From: Escherichia coli
GTDB taxonomy: Bacteria > Pseudomonadota > Gammaproteobacteria > Enterobacterales > Enterobacteriaceae
Reading direction: 5' to 3' (one strand)
Length of the DNA: 64,000 bases
NCBI RefSeq assembly: GCF_024502345.1
Contig: NZ_JALDNN010000001.1
Positions 18,676 through 50,704 of this stretch are shown here, piece by piece. A program made the translations under genes and the position numbers. Within the stretch, counting starts at the first letter, position 1. The number at the start of each line of letters is the position of its first letter. The notes under the pieces were generated by a model. The model was not told where the DNA came from and ran no database searches. It was given only the letters and a program-made list of their open reading frames with translations.

Positions 18676-21414
18676 TTACTCAGCTTTAGCAAACTGCTGG
18701 GTGAAGTAAGCCAATGAATTAGCTTCTTTTACGGCATCATGCGGAATGAGTAAGTATTTCCAAGGTTTGCCACCGTGCTGTGCAAGGTATTCACTGGCAT
18801 GACTACACCATTTCACACCACTGCGGGCTTTTTCGGTGACTTCCTCATTCCAACTGCCGTCTTGGTTTTGATGTTGAGTACTTTTAGTTTCAATCATCAA
18901 TACATAGTCGGCGGTTTCAGCAACGAAATCCGGCACGTATTCAGGATGCTCGCTACCGCGTTTGTAGTACATCTTGAATTGGCCTTTGGCAGGCTTAAAC
19001 CACTTCTCGCAGTCGCGTTCTAAAATCACCGCAAAACGGCGCTCAGTGTCTGAATCAAACTTTTGCAATGGGTATAGACAACGGCTAAAGCCGCCAAAGA
19101 GCATTTGTTTGATGCGACTGACATCGCGTACTGTATCACGGTAGCTTTGCACCGGCTGGTCTTGCGCTATGGTGTAAGCGCAGTCACGTAAGGTACTAAA
19201 GCCACTGCGTACATCGACGACGTACTCGGTTGCTTCTTCAAAGAAGTGGTTGTTCAGTTGCGCATGAATTAACTTCGCAATCGCATCACTCTGGTTTTGC
19301 AGAATGTTCTCAACCACATCGTCGTCGTTTTCAGCGGCCAGTGTATTGACAGCTTGAGTGGCTAGGTCAAACAAAAGTTCAGCTTGCTCGTCGTAAGGAA
19401 TATCGTCGTAATCGAACAGCTTCTTCAAAATATAGTTTTGTTTCACCGGCTCGTAGTTGCCCGAATCGCCTTCGCCACGAATGGTTTGGTGATTGTCTTG
19501 CAGGCTTTGTTGAATCAGAGTTCGGTCGATAGGTTTTAAACCTTTAATGGCAGCAATGTCCAAATCGAACGGGTGATAGCCGGTACGTACTTCACCTGAT
19601 GGTGAAACAATAATACGCGGAATATCTATGGTGTTATCCACCGTGAGCTGGGTGACTTGCTCAACAATCGCCGCAATATCCACCGATTCTTCAGTAAATA
19701 GCTCCCGTTGCTCTTGGGTTAACTGAGCTTTTACTTGTTCGGTGATCTGTGCTTTTACCTCAGTCGTTAACAATGCTTTGCTGGTCGGCGCATCGGTAGG
19801 GCGTGTTTGATATTGCTTGATCACGTCCAATGCAGCGCGGGCAACGGTTTGTTGGTTAGGCGTGGTATAAGTGGCTTTAGGTTCTTGTACCTCACGGTTA
19901 CCGTCTGCACCGGTTGCGGTTACACCTGAACCAGTCAGTTGCTGCTCTAGGTTCGATTTAACCTGCACACTTTGTTTGGTTACATCGTCTTCTGGGCGAT
20001 CTAATACGCGTGTTTTCAGGCGCAGTGGGTTATTCGGGTCGTTAGCCTCATCAACAATTTCTTGGAATTTGTCGTGCGCAACAATGCTCAGCGTATCGAC
20101 GGCTTCAACACCTGTACGTTTGCCATAAGGTAAACGCAAACCACGGCCAATTGACTGTTCAATTAGGGTTCTGGCGTTGGCTGCACGTAGTGGCACAATG
20201 GTGTACAGGTTAGTAACGTCCCAACCTTCTTTCAGCATGTTAACGTGAATGACGATCTCGGTTGGCTCATCGACATGCTCAACATTGAGCAGTGCTTGAA
20301 TAGTTTCTTCTTCTTTTTTACTGCTATCCACTTGAATGACTTTGCCACGGTAGCGGCCGTCAAACACTGTTTCAAGTTTGGTTAAAAGCTCTGCTGCATG
20401 CGTGGTATCACGGGCAATCACCAACATAAAAGGCTTAACTAACTTAGCATCGTTTTCATGTGCATAAGTGATTAAATCCACCTTGGTTTGCTCATGTAAA
20501 CGAATACCGTCCATTAACTTAATGGTTTCTAGTTCGTCTTTATCATATTGGCTGGCATCAAAGTTACGCTGAGTAACAACGGCAGGCTCTTTAACAAAAC
20601 CATCATCCATGGCACAGGCCAATGGGTAATCAATCACCACATTTTTAAAGTGCACAGGGCCACGACTTGATTCGGTAAATGGTGTGGCCGTTAGCTCTAA
20701 TGCGAATAGTGGATTAAGCTCATTGAGCGCACGCATACCGGCATCGGCACGATAGCGATGCGATTCGTCCATCAGCAGCACTAAGTCAGGTAAGTTCGAT
20801 AGATACTCAAAGTAGCTTTCGCCTAGGGTTTCCGCTAAACGCTTAATACGCGGGGCTTTGCCTCCACGTACTTCGGTGTTAATTTTCGCGATGTTAAACA
20901 CATTGATCCGAACCGAACCAAATAGATCGCCCATGACTTGTGCGCCGCGGCTCTCATAGTTATCACCGGTGATCACTTCTGGCGGTGCTAGCACAAAATC
21001 GGTAATGCCTTTAAACACGTACTTCGGTGAGGCGGGCGAGAAATCGCTGATCAGCTTTTCATAAATAGTCAGGTTAGGTGCCAACACAAAATAATTGCGA
21101 ATGCCATGTACCTGATACAAATAGGTAATAAACGCCCCCATCAAACGGGTTTTACCTACACCTGTTGCCAAGGCAAAACACAGTGAAGGAAAGTCACGTT
21201 CAAAATCGCTGAGCTTAGGAAACTGCGCTTTTAAGGTTTCTAATAGCTCCGGCACATCGCGTTTTGGGTTCAGTAGTTTGTGCTCAGAAGCACTAATCGC
21301 CACTGCCAACGCACGCAGCGAATCTTGCTGCGGCTGGCGTAAGCTTAAACGGCCAATAATATTATTAATGGCACGTAATTGGTCGGGTTTTAAGCTTGAT
21401 AAATCCATGGTCAT
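18676..21414 (-). CDS. Type III restriction enzyme Res subunit (SF2 helicase + PD-ExK endonuclease)
   Basis: Helicase motifs I ATGVGKT, II DESH, VI QSIGRGLR; C-terminal PD…ETK (YVPDFVAETADYVLMIETK); directly downstream of the Mod gene. Confidence 0.85.
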   Translation of the reverse strand: MTMDLSSLKPDQLRAINNIIGRLSLRQPQQDSLRALAVAISASEHKLLNPKRDVPELLETLKAQFPKLSDFERDFPSLCFALATGVGKTRLMGAFITYLYQVHGIRNYFVLAPNLTIYEKLISDFSPASPKYVFKGITDFVLAPPEVITGDNYESRGAQVMGDLFGSVRINVFNIAKINTEVRGGKAPRIKRLAETLGESYFEYLSNLPDLVLLMDESHRYRADAGMRALNELNPLFALELTATPFTESSRGPVHFKNVVIDYPLACAMDDGFVKEPAVVTQRNFDASQYDKDELETIKLMDGIRLHEQTKVDLITYAHENDAKLVKPFMLVIARDTTHAAELLTKLETVFDGRYRGKVIQVDSSKKEEETIQALLNVEHVDEPTEIVIHVNMLKEGWDVTNLYTIVPLRAANARTLIEQSIGRGLRLPYGKRTGVEAVDTLSIVAHDKFQEIVDEANDPNNPLRLKTRVLDRPEDDVTKQSVQVKSNLEQQLTGSGVTATGADGNREVQEPKATYTTPNQQTVARAALDVIKQYQTRPTDAPTSKALLTTEVKAQITEQVKAQLTQEQRELFTEESVDIAAIVEQVTQLTVDNTIDIPRIIVSPSGEVRTGYHPFDLDIAAIKGLKPIDRTLIQQSLQDNHQTIRGEGDSGNYEPVKQNYILKKLFDYDDIPYDEQAELLFDLATQAVNTLAAENDDDVVENILQNQSDAIAKLIHAQLNNHFFEEATEYVVDVRSGFSTLRDCAYTIAQDQPVQSYRDTVRDVSRIKQMLFGGFSRCLYPLQKFDSDTERRFAVILERDCEKWFKPAKGQFKMYYKRGSEHPEYVPDFVAETADYVLMIETKSTQHQNQDGSWNEEVTEKARSGVKWCSHASEYLAQHGGKPWKYLLIPHDAVKEANSLAYFTQQFAKAE

Positions 21415-21435
21415 TATAATTATCCTTATTAACCG

Positions 21436-23142
21436 TTAATCTTGCGCTGCATCGTCATCGGCAGACGCATCGTCAGTTAGGTTTGCCACGTTTAACGAAT
21501 AATCGTCCTGACCAAATTGGCACTTGTCTAAAATGGCTTTTGGCAGTTTTTTCAAGGTTAAATTGGTAAAACGACCTGGCTCGCAGCGAAATGCACCACA
21601 CATAACCAGTAAAGTTCGGTCACTGCCAACTTCTTCTGACAGCGCTTCTAATTTATCTACCGATAAGCTTTGTGTGGTGACATAAATATGATCCGTCTCG
21701 GTTGAATAACCGTGATCCCACCAATTCACTTCCGATGGCGCATAGGTAAAACCTTCCAGCTTACAAACGGCTTCGGCGAGCATTTCTGGGTTGTACTCTT
21801 TATTGATCACTTCCAAGCCAAACTTATCTTTCACAATTAAGGTCGGGGCAAGTTTGTAATAGCGGAAGCCACCGCCACCTTGCCAGTTTACAGACTTAGA
21901 AATACCACCTTGATCTTCGCCATCAATCACTTTTTGCAAGCGCGGGATAATATGGGTATGACAATGATCACCTAGCTCGACCGAGATCCAACGTCTTTTC
22001 ATCTTGTGAGCTACAGCAGCAGTAGTTCCCGAACCACCGAATGAATCAAAGACTAAATCGCCTTCTCGCGTACACATTTCGAAAATCCGCTTCAAAAGCG
22101 CTTCGGGTTTTTTTCCATTTTTGAAACTAACGCCGCCTTCATTTGCTATTCCATTCCAACTAATGTCAGTCCAAACATCAGTTATTAGTTCAGCAGGTTG
22201 CATCTCACCGTCAATTTCCAAAAGCCTATTGGAGTAAAAGACCATTTGCCTACCATTTGCGATATAAAAGCCTTCGACATCCTCATTTGGATGTACATAA
22301 ACCTTATCCCTATCTTTCTTTGACTTCTCGATAGTTTCTTTTCTCTTTATTTTAGCACCACCACCAATTGCAACGGATTGAAATACACGTTCTGCATTAT
22401 CAATTGCGAATTGTGCTAATTCATCATCAAATGTATCAGGCAGTTTTTTCTTGGCTTCTTTTGTATCTTTATAGCCATTGGCCTTTGCAAACGCATCGGC
22501 AATACCGCACCACGTCCAACTTTTATAATGGTCATCTGGGTTTAATAGATATTTGTTATATCCCGTATCATATCCTTTAGGTATATAGATTTTGTTAAGC
22601 GGTTTCTGGGTGCGATCTTTTGCGTATACAAGCAAAAAGTTTACTGTGGAGAAAACTGTGGCCCCTGTTGCCTTAAAGCCTGAAGGGTCATTTGTGGTCA
22701 TCGATATGGTATTTAACTGATTTGCACGACCAAAAATCTCGTCCATCAAAACTTTTAAATAAGCCATTTCGCAGTCATCTAAGTGAACGAATATTACTCC
22801 ATCATCACTTAGTAGATTACGAATTATTTCTAACCTATCCCTCATTAAGCCCAGCCAAATGGAATGCTCCAGACCATCATCATAGTGCTCAAAAGCACTT
22901 CCGGTATTGAATGGTGGGTCTATGTAAACACACTTCACTTTGCCTGCATATTCTTGCTCTAGCGCCTTCAATGCCAATAAGTTATCGCCAAAAATCAGTT
23001 TATTATCAAAAATATCGTTTTCGGTCACTTTTTGGCTGGCGTGATAAGACTTGCTCGGGTCTTCTAACAAAATGCGCGGCTCTAACTTTTTGCGCTCGTT
23101 TTTGCCTATCCAGGTCAGTTCTAATTTGGTTTTGCTCATCAT
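21436..23142 (-). CDS. Type III R-M Mod subunit (N6-adenine/N4-cytosine class DNA methyltransferase)
   Basis: Motif IV DPPFN and SAM motif FDSFGGSGTT; mod-res gene order with a 21-bp gap. Confidence 0.85.
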   Translation of the reverse strand: MMSKTKLELTWIGKNERKKLEPRILLEDPSKSYHASQKVTENDIFDNKLIFGDNLLALKALEQEYAGKVKCVYIDPPFNTGSAFEHYDDGLEHSIWLGLMRDRLEIIRNLLSDDGVIFVHLDDCEMAYLKVLMDEIFGRANQLNTISMTTNDPSGFKATGATVFSTVNFLLVYAKDRTQKPLNKIYIPKGYDTGYNKYLLNPDDHYKSWTWCGIADAFAKANGYKDTKEAKKKLPDTFDDELAQFAIDNAERVFQSVAIGGGAKIKRKETIEKSKKDRDKVYVHPNEDVEGFYIANGRQMVFYSNRLLEIDGEMQPAELITDVWTDISWNGIANEGGVSFKNGKKPEALLKRIFEMCTREGDLVFDSFGGSGTTAAVAHKMKRRWISVELGDHCHTHIIPRLQKVIDGEDQGGISKSVNWQGGGGFRYYKLAPTLIVKDKFGLEVINKEYNPEMLAEAVCKLEGFTYAPSEVNWWDHGYSTETDHIYVTTQSLSVDKLEALSEEVGSDRTLLVMCGAFRCEPGRFTNLTLKKLPKAILDKCQFGQDDYSLNVANLTDDASADDDAAQD

Positions 23143-23196
23143 TTCTGTGCTCTTATCTTGTGTTCGTTACTTAGCGTTATTATTCTACAGCAATCG

Positions 23197-25062
23197 CTAC
23201 GCAGGTTGTGCTTGGCGATTACTCGCTTGGGTGTTTTGCCCTTGTCGGCGTTGCGCTTGCTCGGCTAAGTAACTGAATAAATTCTGGTTGTGTGGGTCGT
23301 TCGCTTGAAGGCGTTCTTGTTTTGCTACAACTGCCGGGCTTTCTGCCAAGTTTAAATGGCTAATCCACACCGTTTGCATTAAACGTGCGGTATCGCCCAA
23401 GCGTTTGAAGTATGCGTGCGGCGCACTGCCTAATACTAATGCCGTAAAACTATCAAAAAATTGCTGACGAAGTTCATCAAAAGCGTGGCTGATTAATCTT
23501 TTAAATGCCGCTTGCTCGGTAATCTCAGGAGCCGTAATAGCGCCTTCAAACTGCGCCATTAATAGCGTGGTTATGCAGTAAGTAAAATGTCGATATACCA
23601 GTTTTTCTGGGCTTGGACTACTGCGCTCTGCGTTTGTACATAAGACTTGAATAGCCAGATAGCAGTTCACCGCGTTAATGGCGACGGCCCCCTGTAAATC
23701 TGTACTAAAAACGGCTTGGTACTCGGCACTTTCTTGGTTAGTGAATTTGCTTGGCTCTACTTTTAGCTGATAAGGCACGCGTACATCACCGTGCATACAG
23801 GCCAATGCTTTGGCCAAGGTGTCGATAGTAATGCTGCGAATACCCGCTGCTGCGCTTTGTTGTGGGCGGTAGAGATATTCAACACCAAACATTTTCATCT
23901 CTTGGCGCAAGCGTTCTTGGGTATCATCCAGCGCGGCAAAGTTGGCTAAATCGACCGGGTTTTGCAGGTTACGCGCTTTGGTTACTTGTTTGTGAAATGC
24001 ATCGTTACCCGTGTTGATAATGGTTACCATCACTTGAGCTTGGCTGATGTCTGCATTTGGGTTTTCACGCATAAACTGTGCAGCACTAGCAATGGTTTGT
24101 GCACCGTTAACGACGGACAGGCCATCGACTGCAACATGCTTGCTACCTGTGTGGCCTCTAATATTCCCTTTTGGTTTTACTGCATTGCCAACCAGAGTAA
24201 TGCCATTGTTAAGATAAATAAAATTTTCCGGCTCATGTAAAAGGGTGTCTTTAATCGCCCTATTTACCCCACGTCTGCCAGCACCAATAAAATAGCGAAT
24301 ATTTTTCTCGTAAAGTTTACGGTCATGAGTAGTGTGCAAGGCAATTAAATCGGTTAGCTTGGCGATACCAAATACGACTTTTCGTGGTTGTTCTTGCACT
24401 CGGAACTTATATACAGCGACACGCTCGTTTACCGTATCAACCGCATGTTCACTGCGAAGAGCCTGCTCAACATCGGTGGCGGTGTATTCTTGATATTCAG
24501 GTGCGATTTGCTCTTCACCTTCATCAATCAGCTCTTGGATCGCTGGTTGTAGGTAGTTTTGTGCTTGTATGGTAATGCCATTACCTGTGTATGCGACAAG
24601 CAGTTGAATTCTTTCGCACTCGTCTAATGCGGCTTCAATATTTGCTTGAAGGTTTTGAACATTTTGATTAAAGCGGTGAAATTGCTTGTTTAAAAGTAAC
24701 TTTACACCCTCAATAAAAGCCTGTGCTTCGCCCAATTGGAATTGCGCATCTTCCTTCATTTTTGACTGTACTAAGTACAGAGTCTGATCAGCTTCGTGAT
24801 AATAAATTGCATCAATACCATGGTCTTCATAGTCGTCCACCACAGCTTTTGCTGCGGTCACTACGTCTAAATCGAATTTTTGCTGTAGTACGAATGCGCT
24901 AAAAGCCCTGGAAATTTGCTTTTTAGGTTTATCTTCTCGCCCACCTTGCCCAAGCAATGGCGGTAAATGCGGCACAAAACGCTGCTGTAGCAGTTCTTTT
25001 AATAGGGTAAGAAATTGTGGTTGTAATGCTGCCAAGTGAGTTGTCCTTATTTTTATTGCCAA
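23197..25062 (-). CDS. large abortive-infection-like protein, tentatively AIPR family (621 aa)
   Basis: Size and context (between an Abi_2 gene and an RM system) and a remembered VVNGAQT-like block; family assignment from memory only. Start overlaps the upstream stop by 10 nt. Confidence 0.4.
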
Positions 25063-25994
25063 ATTGGCCGCGCTTGCCAGTCGGCTGGAAAGCCCATGCG
25101 GTCAATGTCTATTTGGTGATGATTTATCAATTGGATGAGTCGTTGCTTCCAGTGATGTTCACCACTGATCACATCCATGAGGTAGCCCAACATCACCAAG
25201 GTGTTATAAATTTTTCGTAAACGCCGGTCGCTATCGGGCAGGTTTTGCAAGCTTTGAATCAGTGCCGGTTCACCATGGCGTGGCAGTACCGTGGTTTTAA
25301 TAAAATCACGGTTCCATAGCCTAGAATGATGGGCACTTAAATTGCGCACTAGCGACAAATGCTCACAGAATGAGGTAAGAGTTTTTTCATCTAGGCCGTA
25401 GCTTTTGCTTATTACCTGGCGGTCGGCACGCAGCTTGATATTGCTGTACCAACAGGAAAGTTGCCCCATGGTTAACAGCTCAACACAGGCCCAAATAGGG
25501 GGTAGTGGCTCTTGATATTTTTGCGTAAGGTGCTTGATGAACTCTTCACGACTGCACTTTACCTCACCCGTGAGTTTGCCAAGGCTACTGGCGTATTCTA
25601 ATAAATCACCAAAGAGCTCTGGTTTTAAATGAGGGTGCGCGGTTTGGTATTTTTGGCTCAACTGATACGCAATTTGTGTGCGTAATGACACCTCAAAACG
25701 CTCGATGGCATCTAGCACTAACAAACGTAGTTCACGGTCGAAAACATATAGGCTTAGGACTTGGTCAAACTGAGTACCTGTGATAAACGTATGACTGGCA
25801 TGATCTTGCTCATAGGGCAAACAATAAGCCGCAAAACGATAGTAGTTCAGCTGTGCTAAGTAAAACTCAGCTTTCGGGACATCACTGATCACTAGGCCAC
25901 GTTGTTGCAACAAGCGTACTTGATCGCTAAAGCTTGTAGGGGGCTTGGTAAAAGCGACTTTAGGGACTGGTTTGCGGCTCATTTGACCTCCCAT
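25053..25994 (-). CDS. Abi_2-family (AbiD/AbiF-like) abortive infection protein
   Basis: 313 aa with N-terminal …[17 protein letters not shown]… signature, which I recall as typical of Abi_2 proteins. Confidence 0.55.
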
Positions 25995-26139
25995 GCAACA
26001 GAAGATCGAATTTTGCGGGCCCCAGAAACGAGTAACCCCTCACAGGGCGCTGATCTGACGGGTAGCGGGAGGGGTGTTGTTGCAGTGATCATAGCCCCAA
26101 ACTGAAAAAAGTCAATGCTGGCGTTGAAATTGATTGTCA

Positions 26140-29034
26140 TCATTGAACCGTCCACCCAATGGTAAATAGGGTCTCTTGGCTGGTTTTTTTATTCAGTTTG
26201 CCTTCTAAGCTTTCAATCAGCTGTTCGCGCTTTTCGTCCACTTCATCTTGTTTATCAAACAGTTCACGGCGGCTTTTATTGCGCTGACTTTCTAACTGGC
26301 GCTGCTGTTTTTGCAGGGCAAGTTTCTCTTCCAGGGTTGGAGCTATTTTGGCTTCGCGGCGTACTTGCTTGATTTGCTTATCAAGCTCTTTTATAGATTG
26401 TTCAAGCCCTTCTTTTAAATCGTCTGCCCAAGAATCTAACTTGTTTACCTCTTGCTCGAAGAAGCTGAGATTACGATCGTTAACTTGCTTTTCGATGCCT
26501 AGTCTCGACTGCTGTAACGCATGCTGCAGCGCATATTGATAGCCAGGATATAAGGCGGCAAGTTCTTGCTCACTTACTTCACTTTGCACACAGGCACTAA
26601 GCTGCATCAGCTTTTGCACGACTTCACTTGGTAGCGGATGACCATGTTCATCTTGCGCGGCGAACAATAAATGGTCTTCGCTACGCTCCAATGATTCGAC
26701 ACTAAATTTTTGTAGGCTTAGTACACCTGACAAACCCACTAAGGGTTCTAGCATACTGATTTTTGTTTGGTGGTTGCTGTAATCAAAAATTACGCTGGCA
26801 ATGGGTAATTCACGTTGAAGCGCGTTGCTGATCACCCATTCACCCAGCGGGTGGGTGATACGATACACATGGGCATTGGCTAGTTTACCGGTTTCAATAC
26901 TGCCGCTTTGCTGTCCTCGGCGTACAAGTTGGTAGCTACCTGTAGGAGCCTGATTGATACTTTGATTAAGCGTAAAACTATGGTTGCTTGGGTCAATGTC
27001 TGCGATAGCTGCAAGTTCATGCGTACTGAGTTGCCAGAACCAACGGCCTACTTTATCGAGGCGTTGCTGCGCGGCATCTAGCTGAATTTTGAGTAAGTCG
27101 TGAATATCTTCATCGAAATTTTCCAGCAGCAGTTGCTGGGTCTCGCGCATTTTTTGGTTGATGTCGGCTTCTAGCTCTTTTTGCAATTGATCAAAAGCTG
27201 CTTCTATTTCCGCCGGTTGCCGACAAGTCTCGTATATATTTTGGATGCGTTTTTCAAAATCAATACCAGATTCAATGCTGCCTAGCACATCGTCCGATGC
27301 ACCAAACACGCCATCGAACAGATGGAATTTTTCAGTCAGTAACTCTAAAACACGCTGATCGGCTTTGTTGGCTTCGTTGAGGAAGTTGATCACCACAACA
27401 TCAAATTGCTGCCCATAGCGGTGACAACGGCCAATACGTTGCTCTACTCGTTGTGGGTTCCATGGTAAGTCATAGTTAATAAGTAACGAACAGAACTGTA
27501 AGTTAACCCCTTCTGCAGCCGCTTCGGTTGCGATCATAACTTCGGCATGATGGCGGAAGTAATCAATTAGGGCAGTACGGCGGTCAATTTGCGGTGAACC
27601 ACTCACCTTATCACTACCTTGGTTTTCAGCTAACCACTGCTGATAAACTTTGGTTGCTTCTGGATGGTTATTGCTGCCACTAAAGGTGACTAATTTATCA
27701 GCAAAGCCATTCGCCTCGAGGAAACGAGCTAGGTATTCTTGCGTGCGCTTCGATTCGGTAAAAATAATGACTTTACGTGGCGCCCCCATTTCCTCCATTT
27801 TGGCAAACCCTTGATTAAGCGCCGTTAGCAAGGCTTGGGTTTTACTGTCGGTGGTAATGGATTTAGCCTGCTCGATATAATGCTCAAGCTCGGCTATTTC
27901 AGCATTGAGTAACTCAAAGTCAATATCACTCTCAGGGGTATTGCTTTGTGTTTCTTCTACATACTCGCTGTACTCTTCTCCTAAATCATCACTCTCAACA
28001 AGCTCACTGATAATATCGAGGTCCGATTTAGCCTGTACTTTCAAGTCAACCAATCGGCGCTTTATAGTTTCGAGTGTGTTGAGCACTGCGTGCGAACTAG
28101 ATGCTAATAGCTTTCTCAGTATAAGGCCGGTTAAATGACGTTGGCTCTTGGGTAGTGCATAGCTCTCGTCCTTTTCCAATAAGGCACTAATACTTTCGTA
28201 AAGTGCCATCTCAGCATTAGAGGGTGTAAACGGTACGGTGAGTGTTTGACGTTGGGTATAGCGGACGTATTCGAGTACATCTTTGCGCAAGGTACGCTGA
28301 ATAAACCCGGTAAGTCGTTTCTTTAAATGCCCTAGCGCACTTTCGTTATTGACAAAGTGTTGTTTGAAGCTTCGCTCATCGCCGAAGATTTGATCGTCGA
28401 TAATGGTTGAAAGTCCATACAATTCCATGAGCGAGTTTTGTAAGGGTGTTGCAGTAAGTAATAGCTTTTTACTGCCATCTAATGCGCGGCGTAGCGTTTG
28501 ACCCATTTTATTGCTGCTACGATGTGCATTACGTAGCTTGTGCGCTTCGTCGATGACGACAATATCCCATGGCTCTAGCATTAGCTGCGTTTCCATTCTC
28601 GCAGCATAGTGATAGGACATAATAGAAACGCAGTGATTAGCTAGCGGGTTAGTTTGACCATTGTTAACACTAATGCGCCACGTTTTTGCATCAAGCACTT
28701 GCGTTGGTAAATTAAACTTATCGCCCAATTCCTGCGCCCACTGGCGTCGCAATGACGCCGGGCAGATGATCAATATGCGGCGTTTACGCTCTGCCCAATA
28801 CTGTGACAGTACTAAGCCTGCTTCAATAGTTTTCCCTAAGCCCACTTCATCAGCGAGTACAACACCTTTGCTTAACGGGTTGTTGAGCGCAAAAAGTGCC
28901 GCATGAATTTGGTGCGGATTGAGATCAACACTGGCATCAAAAAGAGATTGAGACAATTTATCAACGCCATTTTCAGCGTGGCGAATGGTTAATTCCTGCG
29001 CAAAGTATTTTGCTTGATAATCAGTTATTACCAT
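26140..29034 (-). CDS. SNF2-family helicase (about 965 aa) with C-terminal coiled-coil-rich region
   Basis: Motifs I LADEVGLGKT, II VIDEAHKLRN, III LLLTATPLQN, VI QRIGRCHRYGQ. Start set at MVITDYQ (29034) so that overlap with the upstream HTH gene is 14 nt rather than 95. Confidence 0.85.
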   Translation of the reverse strand: MVITDYQAKYFAQELTIRHAENGVDKLSQSLFDASVDLNPHQIHAALFALNNPLSKGVVLADEVGLGKTIEAGLVLSQYWAERKRRILIICPASLRRQWAQELGDKFNLPTQVLDAKTWRISVNNGQTNPLANHCVSIMSYHYAARMETQLMLEPWDIVVIDEAHKLRNAHRSSNKMGQTLRRALDGSKKLLLTATPLQNSLMELYGLSTIIDDQIFGDERSFKQHFVNNESALGHLKKRLTGFIQRTLRKDVLEYVRYTQRQTLTVPFTPSNAEMALYESISALLEKDESYALPKSQRHLTGLILRKLLASSSHAVLNTLETIKRRLVDLKVQAKSDLDIISELVESDDLGEEYSEYVEETQSNTPESDIDFELLNAEIAELEHYIEQAKSITTDSKTQALLTALNQGFAKMEEMGAPRKVIIFTESKRTQEYLARFLEANGFADKLVTFSGSNNHPEATKVYQQWLAENQGSDKVSGSPQIDRRTALIDYFRHHAEVMIATEAAAEGVNLQFCSLLINYDLPWNPQRVEQRIGRCHRYGQQFDVVVINFLNEANKADQRVLELLTEKFHLFDGVFGASDDVLGSIESGIDFEKRIQNIYETCRQPAEIEAAFDQLQKELEADINQKMRETQQLLLENFDEDIHDLLKIQLDAAQQRLDKVGRWFWQLSTHELAAIADIDPSNHSFTLNQSINQAPTGSYQLVRRGQQSGSIETGKLANAHVYRITHPLGEWVISNALQRELPIASVIFDYSNHQTKISMLEPLVGLSGVLSLQKFSVESLERSEDHLLFAAQDEHGHPLPSEVVQKLMQLSACVQSEVSEQELAALYPGYQYALQHALQQSRLGIEKQVNDRNLSFFEQEVNKLDSWADDLKEGLEQSIKELDKQIKQVRREAKIAPTLEEKLALQKQQRQLESQRNKSRRELFDKQDEVDEKREQLIESLEGKLNKKTSQETLFTIGWTVQ

Positions 29035-29227
29035 CCAACACCCCTTTTCCTTGAGCTGCTTGCGTACTGATCCATTCTTCAAGATCGGATTGTTTAAAGC
29101 GCCAAGCATTGCCAACTTTAAAAGCAGGAATTTTATGTACCGCTGCTAGACGGTAAACAGTTCTCTCATTTACCTTCAAATACTCAGCTACTTCTTTAAT
29201 TGTCAGAACGGTATCAGTCATTTTCAC
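29021..29227 (-). CDS. small helix-turn-helix DNA-binding protein (excisionase/MerR-like HTH)
   Basis: LTIKEVAEYLKVNERTVYRLAAVHKIPAFKVGNAWRFKQSDLEEWI is a typical HTH_17-type pattern; overlaps the SNF2 start. Confidence 0.7.
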   Translation of the reverse strand: MKMTDTVLTIKEVAEYLKVNERTVYRLAAVHKIPAFKVGNAWRFKQSDLEEWISTQAAQGKGVLDGNN

Positions 29228-46512: not shown

Positions 46513-46734
46513 ATGAAAATTATCACCCGTGGTGAAGCCATGCGTATTCACCAACAGAATCCTGCATCCCGTCTTTTTCCGTTCTGTACCGGTAAGTACC
46601 GCTGGCACGGCAGTGCTGAAACGTATACCGGTCGTGAAGTGCAGGATATTCCCGGTGTGCTGGCCGTGTTTGCTGAACGCCGTAAGGACAGTTTTGGCCC
46701 GTATGTCCGGTTGATGAGCGTCACTCTGAACTGA
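46513..46734 (+). CDS. DUF987-family protein (YeeT/YkfH-like)
   Basis: MKIITRGEAMRIHQQNPASRLFPFCTGKYRWHGSAETYTGREVQDIPGVLAVFAERR… . Confidence 0.8.
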   Translation: MKIITRGEAMRIHQQNPASRLFPFCTGKYRWHGSAETYTGREVQDIPGVLAVFAERRKDSFGPYVRLMSVTLN

Positions 46735-46752: not shown

Positions 46753-47784
46753 ATGAGCAGCATTATCACCACCACAGTGTATACGCTGGATGAACTTTCC
46801 TGCCCTTCTGCACGGGAAAAAGCCCGCGACTGGTACCGTGTGCACCATTCTGACAGCAACTGGTATGAAAACGTGTACGAGGACTTCAGGGCGGTCTGTG
46901 GCATTTTCGGAATTGACCTCCGCCAGCGCGTTTTCCGGCTCAGCAACGGCAGGTTTATGGAAGAGCCGTGCATCTGGTTCAGCGGATTCTGCAGCCAGGG
47001 GGACGGAGCCTGTTTTGAAGGACGCTGGCACTGGCAGTCAGCAACAGCCAGGAGGCTCCGGGAGTATGCCACACAGGACCATGAACTCCATCGTATCGCG
47101 GATGCCCTGCAGGCGGTGCAGAAACGTAACTTCTGGCAACTGCAGGCTGAAATCCACCACCGGGGACGTTACTGCCATCCGTACAGCATGGATATCACTG
47201 TTACCCGGAACAGTCCGACTGGTCAGGCTATGACAGCCGATGCGGAAGCCGCTGTCAGCGAAGCCCTGCGCGACCTGGCCTTCTGGTTGTACCGTCAGCT
47301 GGAAAACGAGTACGACAGGCTGACCTCTGATGCCGCTGTTGATGAGGCCCTTCTCATCAACGAATACACCTTCACCGAAGCCGGTCTGCGCGCCGGCTTA
47401 CCTGAGGACTTTATCGTGTCAGACAAACTCCATGAGACAAATTATCCCGACGACCATAACGACCGCCTCTGGTGGGGACTGCTCTGCACCGTGACGCCCT
47501 GTTTCGGGGCACGTCTGGTGCAGGAGGGTAACCGGTTGCATTACCTTGTCGACCGCGCCGGCATCAGAGGCCTGTTCAGCGATGCAGATGCGTACCACCT
47601 GGACCAGGCCTTTCCGCTGCTGATGAAACAACTGGAGCTCATGCTCACCAGCGGTGAACTGAATCCCCGCCATCAGCATACCGTGACACTGTATGCGAAG
47701 GGGCTGACCTGTGAAGCCGACACCCTCGGCTCCTGTGGTTACGTTTATCTGGCTGTTTATCCGACGCCCGAAACGAAAAAGTAA
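46753..47784 (+). CDS. 343-codon ORF: unknown 222-aa N-terminal region fused in frame to a CbeA/YeeU-type antitoxin domain (C-terminal about 122 aa)
   Basis: C-terminal part …DDHNDRLWWGLLCTVTPCFGARLVQEGNRLHYLVDRAGIRGLFSDADAYHLDQAFPLLMKQLELMLTSGELNPRHQHTVTLYAKGLTCEADTLGSCGYVYLAVYPTPE matches CbeA. A GTG at 47418 sits where K-12 cbeA has its ATG, so a 122-aa product from 47418 is also possible. Confidence 0.6.
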   Translation: MSSIITTTVYTLDELSCPSAREKARDWYRVHHSDSNWYENVYEDFRAVCGIFGIDLRQRVFRLSNGRFMEEPCIWFSGFCSQGDGACFEGRWHWQSATARRLREYATQDHELHRIADALQAVQKRNFWQLQAEIHHRGRYCHPYSMDITVTRNSPTGQAMTADAEAAVSEALRDLAFWLYRQLENEYDRLTSDAAVDEALLINEYTFTEAGLRAGLPEDFIVSDKLHETNYPDDHNDRLWWGLLCTVTPCFGARLVQEGNRLHYLVDRAGIRGLFSDADAYHLDQAFPLLMKQLELMLTSGELNPRHQHTVTLYAKGLTCEADTLGSCGYVYLAVYPTPETKK

Positions 47785-47873: not shown

Positions 47874-48251
47874 ATGAAAACATTACCTGTATTACCCGGG
47901 CAGGCGGCCAGTTCACGCCCGTCTCCGGTTGAAATCTGGCAGACACTGCTCACCCGACTGCTGGATCAGCACTACGGCCTTACGCTGAATGACACACCGT
48001 TCGCTGATGAACGTGTGATTGAGCAGCATATTGAGGCAGGCATTTCACTGTGCGATGCGGTGAACTTTCTCGTTGAAAAATACGCACTGGTACGTACCGA
48101 CCAGCCGGGATTCAGCGCCTGTACCCGTTCTCAGTTAATAAACAGTATTGATATCCTCCGGGCACGCCGGGCAACCGGCCTGATGACACGCGACAACTAC
48201 AGAACGGTAAATAACATTACCCTGGGTAAACATCCGGGGGCGAAACAATGA
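47874..48251 (+). CDS. cbtA: CbtA/YeeV-family type IV toxin
   Basis: MKTLPVLPGQAASSRPSPVEIWQTLLTRLLDQHYGLTLNDTPFADERVIEQHIEAGISLCDAVNFLVEKY… closely matches CbtA-family toxins. Confidence 0.85.
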   Translation: MKTLPVLPGQAASSRPSPVEIWQTLLTRLLDQHYGLTLNDTPFADERVIEQHIEAGISLCDAVNFLVEKYALVRTDQPGFSACTRSQLINSIDILRARRATGLMTRDNYRTVNNITLGKHPGAKQ

Positions 48252-48670
48252 AACTGGCCCTGACGCTGGAAGCCGACAGCATTAATGCGCAGGCGCTGAA
48301 CATGGGGCGCATTGTCGTTGACGTCGATGGTATTGAGCTCGCTGAACTGATTAACAAAGTCGCTGAAAACGGTTATTCACTCCGCGTGGTGGATGAACGT
48401 GACGCTACCGAAACACCGGCGACTTCTGCCAGCCCTCATCAGTTGCCGGAAGACAATACAGTGATACAGAGCGTGATGCCATTAACCACTGAAACAGCGC
48501 TGGATATCCTCATTGCGTGGCTGCAGGACAATATTGACTGCGAATCGGAAATTATCTTTGACAACAATGAGGACAAAACGGATTCGGCAGCACTGTTGCC
48601 CTGTATTGAACAGGCCAGGGAGGATATCCGTACCCTGCGCCAACTGCAGCTTCTGTACCAGAACCAGTGA
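48248..48670 (+). CDS. YeeW-like (DUF5983) protein
   Basis: Position just downstream of cbtA with 4-nt overlap; acidic 140-aa protein. Confidence 0.6.
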   Translation: MKLALTLEADSINAQALNMGRIVVDVDGIELAELINKVAENGYSLRVVDERDATETPATSASPHQLPEDNTVIQSVMPLTTETALDILIAWLQDNIDCESEIIFDNNEDKTDSAALLPCIEQAREDIRTLRQLQLLYQNQ

Positions 48671-49766: not shown

Positions 49767-49876
49767 CGTTTCAGGACGCCACGATTTAAGCGTTCTGCCG
49801 CCAAATCAATTCTACCGAACTCAACCAGATTCTCCCCACATCACCAGCAATTTGCGGGCATGGTAATGACTCCAAC

Positions 49877-50380
49877 TTATTGATAGTGTTTTATGTTCAG
49901 ATAATGCCCGATGACTTTGTCATGCAGCTCCACCGATTTTGAGAACGACAGCGACTTCCGTCCCAGCCGTGCCAGGTGCTGCCTCAGATTCAGGTTATGC
50001 CGCTCAATTCGCTGCGTATATCGCTTGCTGATTACGTGCAGCTTTCCCTTCAGGCGGGATTCATACAGCGGCCAGCCATCCGTCATCCATATCACCACGT
50101 CAAAGGGTGACAGCAGGCTCATAAGACGCCCCAGCGTCGCCATAGTGCGTTCACCGAATACGTGCGCAACAACCGTCTTCCGGAGCCTGTCATACGCGTA
50201 AAACAGCCAGCGCTGGCGCGATTTAGCCCCGACGTATCCCCACTGTTCGTCCATTTCCGCGCAGACGATGACGTCACTGCCCGGCTGTATGCGCGAGGTT
50301 ACCGACTGCGGCCTGAGTTTTTTAAATGGCGGAAAATCGTGTTGAGGCCAACGCCCATAATGCGGGCGGTTGCCCGGCAT
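49877..50380 (-). CDS. insB: IS1 InsB
   Basis: [16 protein letters not shown]…[15 protein letters not shown], near-identical to IS1 InsB. Confidence 0.95.
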
Positions 50381-50574
50381 CCAACGCCATTCATGGCCAT
50401 ATCAATGATTTTCTGGTGCGTACCGGGTTGAGAAGCGGTGTAAGTGAACTGCAGTTGCCATGTTTTACGGCAGTGAGAGCAGAGATAGCGCTGATGTCCG
50501 GCGGTGCTTTTGCCGTTACGCACCACCCCGTCAGTAGCTGAACAGGAGGGACAGCTGATAGAAACAGAAGCCAC
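50299..50574 (-). CDS. insA: IS1 InsA
   Basis: [48 protein letters not shown]… . Confidence 0.95.
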
Positions 50575-50704
50575 TGGAGCACCTCAAAAACACCATCATA
50601 CACTAAATCAGTAAGTTGGCAGCATCACCAATCATTCTTACTCCCTTTGAATTACCCGCCTCATCAGAGATAATGCTTAAGAAATTTGTCACACAAGGAA
50701 GCTG

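What the first reader, a model, noticed from the sequence alone, without database searches (positions are those of the whole stretch)
46753..47784. CbeA-type antitoxin preceded by an in-frame 222-codon extension of unknown function
In K-12-type islands the DUF987 gene is followed after a short gap by a 122-aa antitoxin. Here a 343-codon ORF starts 19 bp after DUF987; only its last about 122 codons are CbeA-like. A GTG at 47418 sits where the K-12 start is, so either a novel fusion, or an extra gene whose stop was lost, or two products from one frame. The N-terminal region (…CIWFSGFCSQGDGACFEGRWHWQ…) is not a family I recognise.
Basis: partly seen in the sequence, partly recalled or inferred. 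Interest (0 to 1): 0.6.

Follow-up and report, generated by a model that had tools for sequence, protein, structure and literature searches.

The report
Stop-codon loss fuses two island genes
The long reading frame is real, but it is an ordinary accident: one base change removed the stop codon of a common, separate 214/215-codon island gene of unknown function, so it now runs into the neighbouring CbeA antitoxin gene.

Summary
The 343-codon ORF (46753-47784, +) exists as described. It is not a new antitoxin architecture. [quoted passage not shown]

In E. coli F2_407_2_2 that gene is base-for-base identical to the window, except that it ends in TGA where the window has TTA (47398-47400, G>T at 47399). 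The 15-nt spacer is in frame and has no stop, so translation runs on into the GTG start (47416) of a normal 122-aa CbeA/YeeU antitoxin. That start keeps its GAGGA ribosome-binding site.

The same TTA junction is in 24 of 5,426 complete E. coli genomes, so it is not a sequencing error. About 430 genomes have the same junction with TGA. Most copies have a 49-nt spacer that puts the two genes in different frames, and in Klebsiella and Salmonella the gene order differs. NCBI's annotation pipeline (PGAP) already annotates this allele as a pseudogene plus an antitoxin.

The N-terminal family has a confidently predicted fold with no solved relative. It usually occurs in phages and conjugative elements without CbeA/CbtA, and its function remains unknown. 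Low interest.

The parts
46513..46734 (+). DUF987 (YeeT-like) gene, 73 aa; upstream neighbour
   Evidence: ORF. Identical DNA is annotated 'DUF987 domain-containing protein'.
46753..47397 (+). [quoted passage not shown] This makes up the N-terminal part of the 343-codon ORF.
   Evidence: 100% identical over 645 nt to the intact 215-aa gene of E. coli F2_407_2_2. The family has 3,580 clusters, typically 214 aa, and 3,207 clusters at 50% identity. phrog_5162 E 5e-35. AF2 model pLDDT 96.8.
47398..47400 (+). TTA (Leu) codon that replaces the TGA stop of the DUF8835 gene; the G>T change is at 47399
   Evidence: Alignments with UMNF18 and F2_407_2_2 show TGA here as the only difference at the junction.
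47401..47415 (+). Former 15-nt intergenic spacer CCTGAGGACTTTATC. It is in frame, has no stop, and carries the antitoxin's Shine-Dalgarno GAGGA at 47404-47408, 7 nt before the GTG.
   Evidence: Read from the sequence. It equals the common 49-nt spacer minus 34 nt.
47416..47784 (+). CbeA/YeeU-family type IV antitoxin gene, GTG start, 122 aa
   Evidence: PF06154 E 3e-52. PDB 2h28 YeeU E 9e-72 over residues 1-121. PGAP annotates exactly this interval as WP_032216526.1 on identical DNA.
47874..48251 (+). CbtA-family toxin gene, 125 aa, intact
   Evidence: PF06755 E 5e-59, model positions 1-112 of 112. PGAP calls it cbtA on identical DNA.
48248..48670 (+). Context: a second chimeric ORF (140 aa), made of an N-terminal DUF5983 fragment fused in frame to a DUF957 gene
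   Evidence: Residues 1-67 are 64% identical to the N-terminus of a 163-aa DUF5983 protein. Residues 77-140 are 58% identical to a whole 64-aa DUF957-like protein. Pfam DUF5983_N matches residues 4-57. PGAP splits it into a pseudogene plus DUF957.

Best explanation
The 343-codon ORF is a stop-loss read-through of two normally separate, co-transcribed island genes.

The ancestral arrangement in this E. coli island family is DUF987, then DUF8835 (214/215 aa, ending in TGA), then a spacer, then cbeA (GTG start, 122 aa), then cbtA. Two changes produced the allele in the window. First, a 34-nt deletion shortened the usual 49-nt spacer, which is out of frame and contains a stop, to 15 nt, which is in frame and has no stop. 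Second, in a minority lineage, a G>T change at 47399 turned TGA into TTA.

Ribosomes that start at ATG 46753 therefore no longer terminate. They read through the spacer and the whole antitoxin gene, and should give a two-domain protein of about 38 kDa, with DUF8835 joined to CbeA by a flexible linker of about 25 residues (inferred).

The antitoxin's own GAGGA-N7-GTG start site is unchanged, so the normal 122-aa CbeA is probably still made as well by internal initiation (inferred). CbtA would then remain neutralised by the short form, the long form, or both (inferred).

DUF8835 is not an antitoxin. It is an accessory gene of unknown function carried by phages and conjugative or integrative elements. 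Its 'antitoxin' name comes from annotation transfer.
For: Shown:
- The ORF and its coordinates.
- The first 645 nt are identical to the intact gene of F2_407_2_2, which has TGA where the window has TTA. UMNF18 shows the same.
- The exact TTA junction 81-mer is in 24 records of the E. coli collection. About 430 more have the same junction with one mismatch and are annotated as two genes.
- About two thirds of junctions are of another type, with a 49-nt spacer that puts cbeA in a different frame. The 15-nt spacer equals the 49-nt spacer minus 34 nt.
- In Klebsiella michiganensis and Salmonella diarizonae the order is CbeA, DUF8835, CbtA.
- In alphaproteobacterial ICE-like regions, and in 79 of 80 viral-contig loci, no CbeA or CbtA is nearby.
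- The same stop codon has been lost independently elsewhere. TGA>TGC gives a 342-aa fusion (P0017). P0021's 227-aa sequence is what TGA>TGC in a 49-nt spacer would encode, without fusion.
- PGAP annotates the identical DNA as a pseudogene ('missing C-terminus') plus a YeeU antitoxin.
- The AF2 model of the fusion keeps the N-terminal domain at pLDDT above 90, with residues 222-241 below 50.
- Four genomes with this allele show only one megablast match to the locus.
Against: There is no expression data, so the existence and ratio of the long and short products are untested. Elongating ribosomes could occlude the internal start.

Persistence of the allele does not prove that the antitoxin works. 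K-12 antitoxin deletion mutants are viable (PMC5371832), and diverged paralogous antitoxins that megablast would miss could cross-protect.

The N-terminal part shows no decay: it is identical to the intact allele. The mutation is therefore either recent or the fused product is tolerated or useful. These cannot be told apart here.
Confidence: 0.9

Rival explanations
1. The fusion is a selected, functional new protein: a CbeA antitoxin with a DUF8835 sensor or regulatory domain.
For: - The allele is present unchanged in 24 complete genomes from several hosts and countries, at two or more chromosomal sites: next to yghD/gspL in SC516 and next to cadC in GS04.
- Fusions at this junction recur.
- In enterobacteria DUF8835 always sits inside the CbeA/CbtA gene block.
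Against: - It is a minority allele, about 5% of the in-frame junction type and 0.4% of genomes.
- It differs from the intact allele by a single base.
- Frame and gene order are not conserved.
- Most family members occur without any CbeA or CbtA.
- The island carries other decay products, including the neighbouring DUF5983-DUF957 chimera.
Confidence: 0.05
2. Sequencing or assembly error created the read-through.
For: It is a single-base difference. The TGC fusion (P0017) comes from a single 1.3-kb metagenome contig.
Against: The identical TTA junction is found in 24 independently sequenced complete genomes, and the 343-aa protein also occurs in several other assemblies.
Confidence: 0.01
3. Dual expression is the designed feature. 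The TGA followed by C in the in-frame 15-nt junction is naturally leaky, so intact alleles would already make some fusion protein, and the TTA allele merely fixes that state.
For: The stop context is TGA-C. From my own knowledge of Poole, Brown and Tate (1995), this is the weakest termination signal in E. coli. The spacer is in frame and has no stop in about 454 genomes.
Against: The in-frame spacer is a derived 34-nt deletion. The commoner 49-nt spacer is out of frame and has an in-frame TGA after 12 codons. An in-frame spacer would arise in about a third of cases by chance. No conservation argues for selection.
Confidence: 0.04

Closest known systems
CbeA (YeeU) / CbtA (YeeV) type IV toxin-antitoxin pair of E. 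coli K-12 CP4-44 (b2004/b2005; PDB 2h28)
   Same: - The C-terminal 122 codons are a full-length CbeA homologue (PF06154, E 3e-52; 2h28, E 9e-72).
- It has the same GTG start and the same 369-nt length.
- It is followed after 89 nt by a full-length CbtA (PF06755).
- The flanking genes are the same: RadC and DUF987 upstream, a DUF5983/YeeW-like gene downstream.
   Different: Here the antitoxin reading frame is open upstream for 221 more codons because the preceding gene has lost its stop. K-12 lacks that gene. Its 73-nt yeeT-cbeA gap holds only a remnant: the ATG and about 8 codons, MSRIIATT, plus the distal part of the 49-nt spacer.
[quoted passage not shown] WP_000086752.1, WP_032216527.1; phrog_5162)
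   Same: Residues 1-215 are a full-length member. They are 100% identical to WP_032216527.1's gene, and all near-invariant motifs are present (FSGFxSQGDGAxFxG, Y140/H142, W178/Y180).
   Different: Family members are stand-alone proteins of about 205-225 aa with their own stop. Here the stop is mutated. The family name is not backed by any experiment found in the papers searched.
Stop-codon-loss and deletion chimeras in decaying integrative islands
   Same: There is a single-base difference from an intact orthologue, the allele is in the minority, and the annotation pipeline flags it as a pseudogene. A second chimera (DUF5983-DUF957) lies next door, and IS1 and IS30 insertions are nearby.
   Different: The downstream partner keeps its own start signals and is probably still expressed on its own, so the event need not inactivate either gene.

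Membership tests
CbeA/YeeU type IV antitoxin (PF06154) | Full-length match to the CbeA_antitoxin profile and to solved YeeU | tested here: met
   PF06154 positions 2-100 of 101, E 3e-52. 2h28 residues 1-121, E 9e-72.
CbeA/YeeU type IV antitoxin (PF06154) | Lies immediately upstream of a CbtA-family toxin gene on the same strand | tested here: met
   CbtA_toxin PF06755, E 5e-59, at 47874-48251, which is 89 nt downstream.
CbeA/YeeU type IV antitoxin (PF06154) | Small stand-alone protein of about 105-125 aa with its own start | tested here: inconclusive
   The GAGGA-N7-GTG start is intact, but the frame is also open upstream. Which product or products are made cannot be told from sequence.
CbeA/YeeU type IV antitoxin (PF06154) | Counteracts CbtA toxicity | not testable with these tools
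   Needs co-expression assays.
[quoted passage not shown] | Full-length homology to the roughly 214-aa family | tested here: met
   3,580 clusters, with top stand-alone hits 90-99% identical over 100% of the query. phrog_5162 positions 3-195 of 201.
[quoted passage not shown] | Match to the Pfam DUF8835 model | not testable with these tools
   The held Pfam library gives no hit for residues 1-215. The label comes from PGAP on identical DNA.
[quoted passage not shown] | Acts as an antitoxin, as the name implies | tested here: not met
   - No similarity to any antitoxin family or solved structure.
- Usually found without a toxin partner: 79 of 80 viral loci and the alphaproteobacterial ICE regions.
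- The phrase itself is also applied to RelB.
Conserved fused or N-terminally extended antitoxin architecture | Same-frame fusion, or at least fixed order and frame, conserved across homologues | tested here: not met
   The 49-nt out-of-frame spacer is the majority form in E. coli. The order is CbeA, DUF8835, CbtA in Klebsiella and Salmonella. Fused forms are single-sequence clusters.
Stop-loss variant of an intact gene pair | A near-identical allele with an intact stop exists and is commoner | tested here: met
   F2_407_2_2 has TGA where the window has TTA, with otherwise identical upstream gene sequence. 24 records carry TTA and about 430 carry the one-mismatch junction; the TGA was confirmed by alignment in UMNF18 and F2_407_2_2.

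The most novel reading that the evidence does not exclude
In Enterobacteriaceae, DUF8835 may be a third working part of the CbeA/CbtA module, for instance a sensor or modulator. It is always embedded in the block, before the antitoxin in E. coli and between antitoxin and toxin in Klebsiella and Salmonella. The recurrent natural DUF8835-CbeA fusions would then be 'Rosetta stone' evidence of a physical partnership, with the long form having altered antitoxin behaviour.
Probability: 0.08. Interest if true: 0.45.

Novelty: already known. Interest (0 to 1): 0.12.

Why it matters
It matters little for biology but somewhat for annotation.

- A 343-aa 'CbeA-domain protein' should not be taken as a new antitoxin architecture.
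[quoted passage not shown] It should be read as 'unknown function, accessory gene of mobile elements'.
- The DUF8835 family is a reasonable target for study in its own right. It is very widespread in phages, ICEs and enterobacterial islands, its predicted fold is confident, and it has no solved relative.
- The K-12 yeeT-cbeA gap turns out to be a deletion scar of this gene.

Tried and rejected
These searches on the N-terminal part found nothing informative:
- Sequence searches gave no hits: Pfam as held, NCBIfam, PADLOC, and PDB by single sequence and by profile (best E 0.67, which is noise).
- Domain fusions gave no clue. P0137 (374 aa) has a low-complexity tail with no Pfam hit.
- Neighbour clustering in 80 viral-contig loci found no consistently linked partner. 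The neighbours were AAA ATPase, SNF2 helicase, DNA polymerase A, a DUF4942-like methyltransferase and PHROGs of unknown function.
- Literature searches for 'DUF8835', the family name and the island's DUF set found no functional study. The 'antitoxin...' phrase in papers refers to RelB or other proteins.

Two ideas were considered and rejected: a sequencing error, and a conserved programmed read-through.

Full report
**Observation.** The window holds an ATG-started ORF of 343 codons at 46753..47784 on the + strand. It begins 18 nt after the stop of a 73-aa DUF987 gene and is followed by a 125-aa ORF.
- Pfam matches only residues 240-338 (CbeA_antitoxin PF06154, E 3e-52).
- The last 122 codons, starting at GTG 47416-47418, align over residues 1-121 with solved E. 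coli YeeU (2h28, E 9e-72).
- The downstream ORF is a full-length CbtA toxin (PF06755, E 5e-59).
- In K-12, yeeT is followed after 73 nt by the 369-nt cbeA.

**What the N-terminal part is.** Megablast against 5,426 complete E. coli genomes finds the 1,032-nt ORF at 80% coverage or more in 1,809 genomes. On DNA that is 100% identical, PGAP annotates two features:
- a 369-nt 'YeeU family antitoxin' that starts at the GTG.

In strain UMNF18 (97.5% identical) the upstream gene is a separate 214-aa ORF ending in TGA. In strain F2_407_2_2 the 215-codon gene is identical to the window at every base, except that codon 216 is TGA where the window has TTA at 47398-47400. The 343-codon ORF therefore differs from a normal two-gene arrangement by one G>T change at 47399. 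The 15 nt between the former stop and the GTG (CCTGAGGACTTTATC) are in frame and free of stops. They contain the antitoxin's GAGGA, 7 nt before the GTG.

**How common it is.**
- An 81-nt probe across the junction matches perfectly and over its full length in 24 records. These are 23 strains, from chicken, duck, goose, pig, cattle, cat, dog, human and surface water.
- The next roughly 430 full-length matches carry one mismatch and are annotated 'hypothetical protein | cbeA'.
- The remaining matches, about two thirds of 1,429 records, stop matching just after the stop codon. Three of them (L011-L013) have a 49-nt spacer that places cbeA in a different frame.
- The 15-nt spacer equals the 49-nt spacer minus 34 nt.
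- The K-12 yeeT-cbeA gap contains the ATG and first eight codons of this gene (MSRIIATT) joined to the distal part of the 49-nt spacer. K-12 has therefore lost the gene by a deletion of about 0.64 kb, and the 49-nt form is the older one.

Creating the fusion took two steps: the 34-nt deletion, then the stop loss.

**Recurrence.** The protein database holds a handful of 342- or 343-aa forms, each a single-sequence cluster, against stand-alone 214/215-aa clusters with hundreds to more than a thousand member sequences. Other lesions at the same junction also occur:
- P0017 has Cys at the stop position, and its contig reads GGC TGC CCT, an independent TGA>TGC change.
- P0021 (227 aa, 501 member sequences) ends '...RAGCPVIVKLSFTDFL'. 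That is what a TGC stop-loss in a 49-nt spacer would encode, terminating at the next in-frame TGA without reaching cbeA.
- P0052 (280 aa) is a deletion-type fusion.

Loss of this stop is thus a recurrent and tolerated lesion. Whether it produces a fusion depends only on which spacer lies behind it.

**Is the arrangement conserved?** It is not.
- In Klebsiella michiganensis and Salmonella diarizonae the order is DUF987, CbeA, DUF8835, CbtA.
- In Tistrella and Methylosinus the gene sits in ICE-like regions with no CbeA or CbtA. Its neighbours there are ParB_N, DUF736, DUF2958, relaxase and coupling protein, a large AAA_34 helicase, and Toprim.
- IMG/VR holds at least 497 relatives. Of the 80 loci fetched, only one contains CbeA/CbtA homologues. 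The neighbours are replication and early-type genes and proteins of unknown function, with no constant partner.

**The family.**
- A HMMER search of 1.84 billion representative proteins gives 3,207 clusters, mostly 205-225 aa.
- An alignment of 78 members shows near-invariant E14, G78, F79, Q82, G83, D84, G85, A86, F88, G90, Y140, H142, W178, Y180, N203 and F207.
- AlphaFold2 gives an alpha/beta model with pLDDT 96.8 and pTM 0.89.
- There are no hits in held Pfam, NCBIfam, PADLOC or PDB sequence searches. PHROGs gives phrog_5162, of unknown function.
- No paper in the library treats it. [quoted passage not shown]

I conclude that the name is a transfer artefact and that the protein is an accessory gene of mobile elements with unknown function. 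Its company in ICE and island regions (antirestriction, RadC, ParB_N) suggests a role in establishment or anti-defence. That suggestion is inference with low confidence.

**Likely consequences (inferred).** Ribosomes starting at 46753 should produce a protein of about 38 kDa. An AF2 model of the fusion keeps the N-terminal domain at pLDDT above 90 and gives residues 222-241 pLDDT below 50. The CbeA part has YeeU-like secondary structure at low confidence because its alignment is shallow. This fits two independent domains joined by a flexible linker. The unchanged SD and GTG should still allow synthesis of the 122-aa antitoxin. Four genomes with this allele show a single megablast match to the locus, which hints that the locus can still control its own CbtA. 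The hint is weak, because antitoxin deletions are viable in K-12 (PMC5371832) and diverged paralogues would be missed.

**Context.** The island is decaying.
- The very next ORF (48248-48670) is another chimera, DUF5983 N-terminal fragment plus DUF957.
- IS1 and IS30 elements are present.
- IS1 abuts dcuS directly, where E. coli GS04 has cadCBA-dtpC-lysS-ghoST-yjdJI (the lysS next to cadA is presumably lysU).

**Verdict.** The feature is already annotated in RefSeq genomes, so interest is low. The residual interest lies in the uncharacterised DUF8835 family, and in the small chance that its embedding in enterobacterial CbeA/CbtA blocks reflects a functional link.

Noticed in passing
window 48248-48670 (+): A second chimeric ORF lies directly after cbtA. 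This 140-aa product joins the N-terminal 67 residues of a DUF5983 (YeeW-like) protein in frame to a complete DUF957-like protein of about 64 aa. PGAP splits the identical DNA into a pseudogene plus DUF957.
   Followed up: yes
window ~49865-50704 (IS1) and 50705 onward (dcuS): IS1 abuts the dcuS upstream region directly. The roughly 10-kb segment cadC-cadB-cadA-dtpC-lysS(presumably lysU)-ghoT-ghoS-yjdJ-yjdI, which lies between the island and dcuS in E. coli GS04, is missing. No complete E. coli genome in the collection shares this junction. This looks like a Shigella/EIEC-type loss of the cad locus, so the window may come from such a strain.
   Followed up: partly
window 18676-29115 (-): A defence-like gene cluster: a 990-aa SNF2 helicase close to DISARM DrmD (697 bits, below the 950-bit cut-off), a 312-aa unknown, a 620-aa AIPR-like protein, a 567-aa DNA methyltransferase, and a 911-aa restriction-endonuclease/helicase-like protein.
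   Followed up: partly
window 1910-3523 (-): A group II intron. Rfam RF00029 matches at 1910-1996 (64.9 bits), next to a 507-aa reverse transcriptase/maturase ORF (TIGR04416, E 8e-102). An IS30 transposase lies at 4674-5825.
   Followed up: no
L096 (E. coli K-12 NC_000913.3 2077039-2077111): The 73-nt yeeT-cbeA intergenic region of K-12 CP4-44 is a deletion scar. It keeps the ATG and first eight codons of the DUF8835 gene, joined to the distal part of the 49-nt DUF8835-cbeA spacer.
   Followed up: yes
L008/L009 (Klebsiella michiganensis) 4610-5996; L010 (Salmonella diarizonae) 4293-6084: In these islands the DUF8835 gene lies between the CbeA antitoxin and the CbtA toxin, with gaps of 13 and 33 nt, or a 4-nt overlap with the preceding gene. 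This is an unusual interruption of a toxin-antitoxin pair. Salmonella also has two tandem, overlapping CbeA genes.
   Followed up: partly
protein P0021 (227 aa, 501 member sequences; E. coli): A widespread DUF8835 variant whose C-terminus is what a TGA>TGC stop loss in a 49-nt spacer would encode. That would add 12 residues (PVIVKLSFTDFL) without fusing to cbeA. Together with the other cases, this points to repeated loss of the gene's stop codon.
   Followed up: partly
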